Positions 51,578-51,636 of a stretch of 64,000 nucleotides of DNA are shown here, piece by piece (within the stretch, counting starts at the first letter, position 1; each line of letters begins with the position of its first letter). The notes beneath the pieces are model-generated. The model did no database searches. It saw only the letters and a program-made list of their open reading frames with translations, and was not told the DNA's origin. Source of the DNA: Escherichia coli (GTDB lineage Bacteria; Pseudomonadota; Gammaproteobacteria; Enterobacterales; Enterobacteriaceae); the NCBI RefSeq assembly GCF_003334385.1, contig NZ_QOWN01000008.1. One strand, given 5' to 3'. The position numbers and the translations under genes are program-made.

Positions 51578-51636
51578 CTGATGAGCAATTATGCCCAATG
51601 AATCTACCTCATTGGGCATAATTTGGAACTCATCAG
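51578..51636 (-). terminator. Long palindromic stem-loop at the sixA 3' end (terminator or RNA-processing hairpin)
   Basis: Perfect 13-bp inverted repeat ttatgcccaatga (51589-51601) / tcattgggcataa (51609-51621), 7-nt loop, plus outer 8-bp arms ctgatgag / ctcatcag that overlap the sixA stop. Confidence 0.5.

What the first reader, a model, noticed from the sequence alone, without database searches (positions are those of the whole stretch)
51578..51636. Unusually long perfect palindrome overlapping the sixA stop codon
A 13-bp perfect inverted repeat with a 7-nt loop, extended by outer 8-bp arms (about 59 nt in total), begins at the sixA stop. It is larger and more perfect than the typical intrinsic terminators in this window and lacks a strong U-run, so it may be an RNase III/RNase E processing site, a protein-binding palindrome, or a boundary insulating the fimbrial operon leader from sixA read-through.
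Basis: seen in the sequence. Interest (0 to 1): 0.2.

Follow-up and report, generated by a model that had tools for sequence, protein, structure and literature searches.

The report
Hairpin ending the sixA transcript
The palindrome is the stem-loop at which the E. coli sixA messenger RNA ends, a 3'-end hairpin without a U-run of a kind already described and already visible in published 3'-end maps, so it is real but ordinary.

Summary
The palindrome is real and slightly larger than reported. It has perfect 15-nt arms (51587-51601 / 51609-51623) inside perfect 8-nt outer arms (51578-85 / 51629-36), and the sixA stop codon lies in the outer arm. On the sixA-sense (minus) strand the RNA forms about 29 bp (dG about -45 kcal/mol, z = -6.7). 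It has no U-run, no Rfam match, and one copy per genome.

All Escherichia lineages carry a hairpin at this position. 7 of 14 pairs show compensatory changes, and several alleles keep a normal U-tract. The K-12 allele, present in 57% of 5,426 genomes, does not.

Just downstream lies the most C-over-G-rich stretch on that strand of the window, and a published bicyclomycin-sensitive Rho termination region sits 69 nt further on. The best reading is that sixA transcripts are terminated by Rho downstream and trimmed back to this protective stem-loop (the Dar & Sorek 2018 class). Direct weak intrinsic termination is the main rival. RNase III processing, protein binding and repeat-family membership are unsupported. 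Interest is low.

The parts
51633..52118 (-). sixA coding sequence (phosphohistidine phosphatase). Stop codon UGA at 51633-51635, followed by a second in-frame UGA at 51630-51632.
   Evidence: ORF list; RefSeq annotation of identical loci
51587..51623 (-). Inner hairpin. Perfect 15-nt arms (51609-51623 is the 5' arm and 51587-51601 the 3' arm of the sixA-sense RNA). 16 bp with a 5-nt loop (GUAGA) once the G.U closing pair is counted. Invariant in about 3,096 genomes.
   Evidence: dG -21.4 kcal/mol alone
51624..51641 (-). 5' arm of the outer helix plus a 4-nt bulge (UCCA). It contains the last sixA codon and both UGA stops, so a terminating ribosome must open this helix.
   Evidence: The common T51630A polymorphism breaks one pair without compensation.
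51573..51586 (-). 3' arm of the outer helix. It contains the published steady-state 3' terminus of sixA mRNA: peak boundaries 51577-51588, dominant positions 51581-51584 (MG1655 2456275-2456278).
   Evidence: Bar et al. 2023 (PMC10687069), Supplementary Data 2-4; coordinate offset +2404694
51473..51572 (-). C-rich, G-poor untranslated tract directly 3' of the hairpin (candidate Rho utilisation site). C/G = 2.6, the highest of all 100-nt windows on this strand of the 64-kb window.
51504..51504 (-). Coordinate of the published bicyclomycin-sensitive 'Rho termination region' (MG1655 2456198, minus strand; Rho score 9.3, p = 1e-41).
   Evidence: Adams et al. 2021 (PMC7815308), Supplementary file 2
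51336..51364 (-). yfcV (fimbrial operon) promoter TTGAAA-17-TATAGT, reported as H-NS-bound. This is the next transcription unit, which the sixA 3'-end region separates from sixA.
   Evidence: Shimada et al. 2014 (PMC3946193); promoter-island listing in PMC3661553

Best explanation
The palindrome is the 3'-terminal stem-loop of the sixA mRNA, read on the minus strand.

Proposed mechanism for the K-12-type allele:
- RNA polymerase transcribes through the hairpin, which has no U-tract and so releases the transcript poorly.
- After the ribosome leaves at the UGA-UGA stops, Rho loads on the C-rich, G-poor untranslated tract directly downstream (51473-51572).
- Rho terminates transcription within roughly the next 70-150 nt, before the H-NS-bound yfcV promoter.
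- 3'-to-5' exonucleases (PNPase, RNase II) trim the tail back. They chew into the weaker outer helix and stall 3-6 nt from the very stable 16-bp inner stem.
- The inner stem then serves as the mRNA's protective 3' cap.

Shown: the structure; its conservation through compensatory changes; the mapped 3' end; the absence of a U-tract; the C>G tract; and a bicyclomycin-sensitive region just downstream.

Inferred: that sixA transcripts specifically are the ones Rho terminates, and that the 3' end arises by trimming.

The broader claim, that this is the sixA 3'-end hairpin (terminator and/or stabiliser), holds at about 0.93. The confidence given here is for the specific mechanism of Rho termination followed by trimming.
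For: - Structure: about 29 bp on the sense strand, z = -6.7. It is more stable on the sense strand than on the antisense strand (-44.8 vs -37.0 kcal/mol) because of sense-only G.U pairs.
- Published mapping in MG1655: a 'Primary' sixA 3' terminus with peak 2456271-2456282 and dominant positions 2456275-2456278, adjusted p from 1e-17 to 1e-85 across datasets. It is listed in the RNAtag-seq/Term-seq summary table for LB and minimal medium. This corresponds to window 51581-51584.
- No U-tract.
- C/G = 2.6 in the 100 nt downstream, the maximum on this strand of the window.
- A Rho termination region at 2456198(-), which is window 51504, 69 nt past the helix, with Rho score 9.3 and p = 1e-41.
- This matches the class defined by Dar & Sorek 2018. 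Rho-dependent transcripts end immediately after stable stem-loops that lack U-tracts, have C>G downstream, and are trimmed by PNPase and RNase II.
- Every Escherichia allele has a hairpin at this position. 89.5% of cells are paired, 7 of 14 pairs show changes on both sides, and 0 of 500 shuffles reach this.
- About 1,065 genomes carry an uncompensated mismatch in the outer helix while the inner stem is invariant. This fits the inner stem being the functional barrier.
Against: - The curated Term-seq list of Adams et al. has no 3' end at the hairpin.
- In their bicyclomycin data the downstream reads (738) exceed the upstream reads (148). Much of the Rho-sensitive signal must therefore come from transcripts that start inside the AT-rich promoter island, not only from sixA read-through.
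- The Rho coordinate is derived from 800-nt windows and is coarse.
- No pnp or rnb mutant data, and no per-gene Rho-dependence table, could be retrieved.
- Across alleles, a weak U-tract does not track with downstream C>G bias.
- A very stable hairpin could cause some termination on its own.
Confidence: 0.62

Rival explanations
1. A weak intrinsic (Rho-independent) terminator. The unusually long and stable hairpin itself makes RNA polymerase release the transcript despite the missing U-tract, and the mapped 3' end is the true termination point.
For: Sister alleles at the same position are canonical hairpin-plus-U-tract terminators (O157, E. albertii, AR_0137 and 2017-02-2CC), so the element descends from an intrinsic terminator. 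A sharp 3' end maps beside the stem. The stem ends in UAAUU.
Against: Only 2 U occur in the 8 nt after the stem, and the U-tract score is 0.4-0.7 against 3.0-3.6 for canonical alleles. The terminator scan finds nothing here. The 3' end lies 3-6 nt from the inner stem and inside the outer arm, whereas intrinsic termination usually releases 7-9 nt into a U-run (the latter figure is from general knowledge). A Rho-sensitive region and a C-rich tract follow the hairpin.
Confidence: 0.2
2. An RNase III processing site. The roughly 29-bp double-stranded helix is cut by RNase III, which produces the observed 3' end and controls sixA mRNA stability.
For: The helix is long enough (16 + 10 + 3 bp with a 4-nt bulge). 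The 3' end lies inside the double-stranded outer arm.
Against: sixA, b2340 and its coordinates do not occur in the three supplementary files held for the Gordon et al. 2017 RNase III study. The Altuvia 2018 tables could not be read. Other alleles have short hairpins of 12-14 bp that RNase III would not cut, and one third of K-12-type genomes carry a mismatch in the outer helix. Coverage of the 3' UTR relative to the coding sequence is not flagged as an outlier.
Confidence: 0.07
3. A DNA-level element: a binding site for a dimeric regulator of the yfc fimbrial operon, or a recombination or insulator site at the border of the variable yfc segment.
For: It is a perfect palindrome about 210 bp upstream of the yfcV -35 element, and it sits exactly where similarity between lineages breaks.
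Against: The arm sequences differ between lineages while complementarity is kept. G.U pairs work only in the sense-strand RNA. No second copy or similar half-site exists in the window or in E. coli genomes. It is absent from phages, and the only plasmid-collection matches are three large Escherichia records that carry sixA itself. A 15-nt half-site with a 7-bp spacer is atypical for regulators (general knowledge).
Confidence: 0.04
4. No current function: a decayed terminator that persists by descent.
For: The U-tract has been lost. The outer helix tolerates a common mismatch. One strain carries an IS1 insertion in the loop.
Against: The inner stem is invariant in about 3,096 genomes. A compensatory G-C to A-U change relative to the other alleles preserved pairing. 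A reproducible RNA 3' end maps there.
Confidence: 0.05

Closest known systems
3'-terminal protective stem-loops of Rho-dependent transcripts (Dar & Sorek 2018, NAR 46:6797; PMC6061677)
   Same: A stable stem-loop lies immediately 5' of a precise steady-state 3' end. There is no U-rich tail. C exceeds G downstream. A bicyclomycin-sensitive region lies nearby. It is not a REP element, as was true of 76% of the members of that class.
   Different: The stem is longer and more perfect than usual (16 bp, plus an outer helix that includes the stop codon). Rho dependence of the sixA transcript itself and exonuclease trimming have not been shown for this gene.
Canonical intrinsic terminators, including the sister alleles downstream of sixA in O157:H7, E. 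albertii and other E. coli lineages
   Same: Same position and the same AUGCCC...GGGCAU core; homologous by descent with compensatory changes. Same role of ending the sixA transcription unit.
   Different: The U-tract is missing in the K-12-type allele, and the stem is extended by AAUU/AAUU and by an outer helix.
REP/BIME elements that stabilise upstream mRNA 3' ends
   Same: An extragenic palindrome at a 3' end that can block exonucleases. In Salmonella and in some Citrobacter and Kluyvera, REP-like elements occupy the position after sixA.
   Different: It is single-copy and lacks the REP consensus. The 8-nt resemblance GCCTGATG in the outer arm is not supported by any multi-copy match.

Membership tests
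Intrinsic (Rho-independent) terminator | Stable G+C-containing stem-loop at the end of a transcription unit | tested here: met
   A 16-bp stem with a CCC/GGG core, dG -21.4 kcal/mol alone and about -45 with the outer helix, starting 9 nt after the sixA stop
Intrinsic (Rho-independent) terminator | U-rich tract (about 5 or more U in 8 nt) directly after the stem | tested here: not met
   2-3 U in 8 nt; U-tract score 0.4-0.7 against 3.0-3.6 in canonical sister alleles; the scan finds no terminator
Intrinsic (Rho-independent) terminator | Termination independent of Rho | tested here: inconclusive
   A published Rho termination region lies 69 nt downstream, but its signal cannot be assigned to sixA transcripts alone
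Protective 3' stem-loop of Rho-dependent transcripts (Dar & Sorek class) | A precise steady-state 3' end immediately downstream of a stable stem-loop | tested here: met
   Published terminus at MG1655 2456275-2456278, which is window 51581-51584, 3-6 nt from the inner stem
Protective 3' stem-loop of Rho-dependent transcripts (Dar & Sorek class) | Reduced U content after the stem and C-over-G enrichment downstream | tested here: met
   C/G 2.6, the highest on this strand in the window
Protective 3' stem-loop of Rho-dependent transcripts (Dar & Sorek class) | Bicyclomycin-dependent read-through beyond the 3' end | tested here: inconclusive
   Adams 2021 report Rho score 9.3 at window 51504. Downstream reads under bicyclomycin exceed upstream reads, so other promoters contribute.
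Protective 3' stem-loop of Rho-dependent transcripts (Dar & Sorek class) | Longer 3' tails in pnp or rnb exonuclease mutants | not testable with these tools
   The supplementary tables of PMC6061677 are not held
REP/BIME repeat family | Hundreds of copies per genome sharing a consensus | tested here: not met
   One place per genome, always at sixA; no other copy in the window
RNase III substrate | About 20 bp or more of double-stranded RNA | tested here: met
   About 29 bp, interrupted by a 4-nt bulge and one mismatch
RNase III substrate | rnc-dependent cleavage in vivo | tested here: inconclusive
   No occurrence of sixA in the Gordon 2017 supplementary files that are held; the Altuvia 2018 tables are not held
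Curated RNA families (Rfam 15) | Match to a covariance model at or above its gathering score | tested here: not met
   Only chance-level hits, E = 1.5 and 6.1
Transcription-factor binding palindrome | Half-site sequence conserved among orthologous sites | tested here: not met
   The arms change between lineages while pairing is kept; 7 of 14 pairs show changes on both sides

The most novel reading that the evidence does not exclude
The K-12-type extension may be a translation-sensing switch. Its outer helix has a 5' arm made of the last sixA codon and the tandem UGA stops. A terminating ribosome must melt this helix. Ribosome traffic on sixA would then decide whether the full 29-bp helix forms (an RNase III target, or a stronger barrier) or only the inner stem forms. 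This would couple sixA translation to mRNA stability, or to Rho loading and read-through into the H-NS-silenced yfc fimbrial operon.
Probability: 0.05. Interest if true: 0.35.

Novelty: already known. Interest (0 to 1): 0.12.

Why it matters
It matters little beyond annotation. The analysis assigns the palindrome a concrete and ordinary role as the sixA mRNA 3' end. It also shows that the commonest E. coli allele has lost the U-tract that sister alleles retain. This gives a small natural allelic series, from canonical terminator to U-less hairpin at one locus. That series could be used to compare intrinsic termination with Rho-dependent 3'-end formation, and to measure how well each allele insulates the silent yfc fimbrial operon from upstream transcription.

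Tried and rejected
- Repeat family or mobile element. BLAST of the 69- and 96-nt element found one place per genome, always at sixA. The only plasmid-collection matches were three large Escherichia records that carry sixA itself, and nothing was found in phages.
- Rfam. No family matched.
- Small ORFs starting in the palindrome (57 aa on each strand, both beginning MPNE). These are treated as artefacts of an ATG within a palindrome. The start codon is buried in the 16-bp stem, and the flanking region is not conserved between alleles.
- The C-rich tract or outer arm as a relic of the 3' end of smrB, which is the convergent neighbour of sixA in other Enterobacteriaceae. Local alignment scored no better than shuffles.
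- A link between U-tract loss and downstream C>G bias across alleles. No clean pattern emerged.
- The d'Aubenton-Carafa terminator discriminant, recalled from memory and computed with modern folding energies. It gave borderline values even for canonical alleles, so only its U-tract component is used.
- Supplementary tables. Those of Dar & Sorek 2018, Choe 2022, Altuvia 2018 and the nanopore study are not held. The TERMITe tables hold nothing for sixA.
- The integron attC or recombination-site idea. It was dropped on inspection, because there is no conserved GTTRRRY-type core and no integrase nearby. It was not formally tested.

Full report
**Observation.** The window is E. coli chromosome in the order fadJ-sixA-yfcV-yfcU, all on the minus strand. 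sixA is at 51633-52118 and yfcV at 50389-50952.
- The perfect arms are 15 nt (51587-51601 and 51609-51623) around a 7-nt spacer.
- They are nested inside perfect 8-nt outer arms (51578-51585 and 51629-51636).
- With imperfections the helix extends to 51573-51641.
- The sixA stop UGA (51633-51635) and a second in-frame UGA lie in the outer arm.
- The sixA-sense RNA folds into 16 + 10 + 3 bp with a 4-nt bulge. The 96-nt fold gives -44.8 kcal/mol with z = -6.7, against -37.0 for the antisense strand. The difference comes from G.U pairs that exist only in the sense RNA.
- It has the longest perfect short-loop hairpin arms in the window.
- It has no T-run on either side.

**What it is not.**
- No Rfam family matches.
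- It is not a repeat. The arm sequence occurs nowhere else in the window.
- The 69- and 96-nt element occurs once per genome, always at the sixA 3' end, in about 3,098 of 5,426 complete E. coli genomes.
- It is absent from phages. The only matches in the plasmid collection are three large Escherichia records that carry sixA itself.

**Comparative evidence.** Similarity between E. coli lineages breaks exactly at the sixA stop codon. The 560-bp AT-rich spacer down to yfcV is hypervariable. Four main alleles account for nearly all genomes:
- K-12 type: about 3,098 genomes
- EC5931 type: about 1,227
- AR_0137 type: 634
- O157 type: 429

Every allele places a G+C-cored hairpin a few nucleotides after the sixA stop, as do E. 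albertii, E. whittamii and the other Escherichia loci.
- Several are textbook intrinsic terminators. O157 has ...CAUCGGGCAUUUGUCUUUUU, AR_0137 has ...CGGGCCUUUAUUUUUUU, and E. albertii has ...AUCGGGCAUUUCUGUUUU.
- The K-12, O157, albertii, whittamii, EC5931 and 2017-02-2CC hairpins share the core AUGCCC...GGGCA and align in register.
- Across 7 distinct sequences, 89.5% of cells pair. 7 of 14 pairs show changes on both sides, for example G-C in all other alleles against A-U in K-12. No shuffle out of 500 reaches the observed pairing or covariation.

The structure, and not the arm sequence, is therefore what is kept. This argues for a hairpin selected as structure and against a sequence-specific protein site. 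A DNA palindrome is symmetric, so covariation alone cannot name the strand. The sense-only G.U pairs and the mapped RNA end do.

Within the K-12 type, the inner stem is invariant. About 1,065 genomes carry T51630A, an uncompensated mismatch in the outer helix. The outer helix is therefore under weaker constraint, if any.

In other Enterobacteriaceae, smrB converges on sixA with a single shared hairpin between them. The yfc fimbrial operon separates the two genes only in Escherichia.

**Experimental evidence from the literature.** The window maps to MG1655 with an offset of +2404694.
- Bar et al. 2023 (PMC10687069) list a 'Primary' 3' terminus for sixA on the minus strand. The peak is 2456271-2456282 and the dominant positions are 2456275, 2456276 and 2456278.
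- They detect it in several datasets with adjusted p from 1e-17 to 1e-85, and it appears in their RNAtag-seq/Term-seq summary table for LB and minimal medium. They print the same hairpin as its upstream structure, with a 3' UTR of 52 nt.
- This corresponds to window 51581-51584. That is 3-6 nt beyond the inner stem and inside the 3' outer arm.
- Adams et al. 2021 (PMC7815308) do not list this end in their curated Term-seq table.
- Their bicyclomycin experiment does call a Rho termination region at 2456198(-), which is window 51504 and 69 nt beyond the helix. The Rho score is 9.3 with p = 1e-41.
- The 100 nt following the hairpin on the sense strand have C/G = 2.6, the highest value for any 100-nt window on that strand of the 64 kb.
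- Dar & Sorek 2018 (PMC6061677) defined exactly this configuration. Rho-dependent transcripts have precise steady-state 3' ends just after stable stem-loops that lack U-tracts. C exceeds G downstream. The ends are produced by PNPase and RNase II trimming after diffuse Rho termination further downstream.

**Mechanism proposed.**
1. Polymerase reads through the U-less hairpin.
2. After the ribosome releases at UGA-UGA, Rho loads on the C-rich tract.
3. Rho terminates before the H-NS-bound yfcV promoter at 51336-51364.
4. Exonucleases trim back through the weaker outer helix and stall a few nucleotides from the 16-bp inner stem, which then protects the mRNA.

**Caveats.**
- Under bicyclomycin the downstream read count (738) exceeds the upstream count (148). 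Part of the Rho-sensitive signal must therefore come from transcripts that start within the promoter island, not from sixA read-through.
- The Rho coordinate is coarse.
- No exonuclease-mutant data could be retrieved.
- Across alleles, loss of the U-tract does not track with downstream C-richness.

I put 0.62 on this specific mechanism and about 0.93 on the general statement that this is the sixA mRNA 3'-end hairpin.

**Rivals.**
- Direct weak intrinsic termination (0.2). The element clearly descends from an intrinsic terminator.
- RNase III cleavage of the long helix (0.07). This is structurally possible, but sixA does not occur in the Gordon 2017 files that are held, and the long helix is specific to one allele.
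- A DNA-level regulator or recombination site (0.04). The covariation and the single-copy status disfavour this.
- A functionless relic (0.05). The invariant inner stem, the compensatory change and the reproducible RNA end disfavour this.

**Comparison with known systems and novelty.** The element works like, and by most testable criteria belongs to, the class of U-less protective 3' stem-loops of Rho-dependent transcripts. It fails the U-tract criterion for a canonical intrinsic terminator and the copy-number criterion for REP elements.

The 3' end and its fold are already tabulated in a published genome-wide dataset, and the class has been described. The finding is therefore already known in substance, although nobody appears to have studied this locus individually.

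The only mildly new points are the natural allelic series at one locus (canonical terminator in some lineages, U-less extended hairpin in 57% of genomes) and the fact that the stop codons sit inside the outer helix. Interest is low (0.12).

Noticed in passing
L009 about 1690-2560 (E. coli EC09); L006 465-1162 (XJW9B277): In strain EC09 an IS1 element sits inside the loop of the palindrome, with a 9-bp target duplication (CAATGAATC), and splits the two arms. In XJW9B277 another IS1 lies elsewhere in the sixA-yfcV spacer.
   Followed up: partly
window 51050-51610: The sixA-yfcV spacer is hypervariable, at about 35-60% identity between K-12 and O157. Four main alleles occur across 5,426 genomes. 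Similarity breaks exactly at the sixA stop codon, and yfcV itself is only 80-90% identical. The region is AT-rich (26-33% G+C) and is listed in the literature as an H-NS-bound 'promoter island'.
   Followed up: partly
window 51298-51327 (+): A near-consensus sigma-70 promoter-like site (TTGGCA-18-TATAAT, 11 of 12 matches) points antisense into sixA. Adams 2021 also list a plus-strand Rho termination region at MG1655 2455977, which is window 51283.
   Followed up: no
window 52139 and 52235 (-), fadJ-sixA spacer: Published Term-seq 3' ends lie 21 and 117 nt upstream of the sixA start codon (MG1655 2456833 and 2456929). The first follows a hairpin, CCGUUUUCUUUC...GAAAGAAAACGG. This could be the fadJ terminator or an attenuator in the sixA leader.
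   Followed up: no
window 47662-50307 (-): yfcU (fimbrial usher) is an intact 881-aa ORF in this window but is annotated as a pseudogene in MG1655. The window therefore comes from a K-12-like strain that is not MG1655.
   Followed up: no
L018-L093 (other Enterobacteriaceae), about 1684-1800: Outside Escherichia, smrB converges on sixA about 50 nt away, with one shared hairpin. In Enterobacter, Lelliottia and Leclercia that hairpin also lacks a U-run, and an outer helix includes the sixA stop codon (UGACG...UGUCA). Salmonella and some Citrobacter, Kluyvera and Pseudocitrobacter have REP-like elements at this position instead.
   Followed up: partly
window 57970-57998 (+): The fadL 3'-end hairpin (TAAAGTCACCTGCATAGCAGGTGACTTTA, 13-nt perfect arms) also has only a weak U-run (UUUAAC). 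Both Adams 2021 and Bar 2023 list it as a primary 3' end. It is a second U-poor terminal hairpin in the same window.
   Followed up: no
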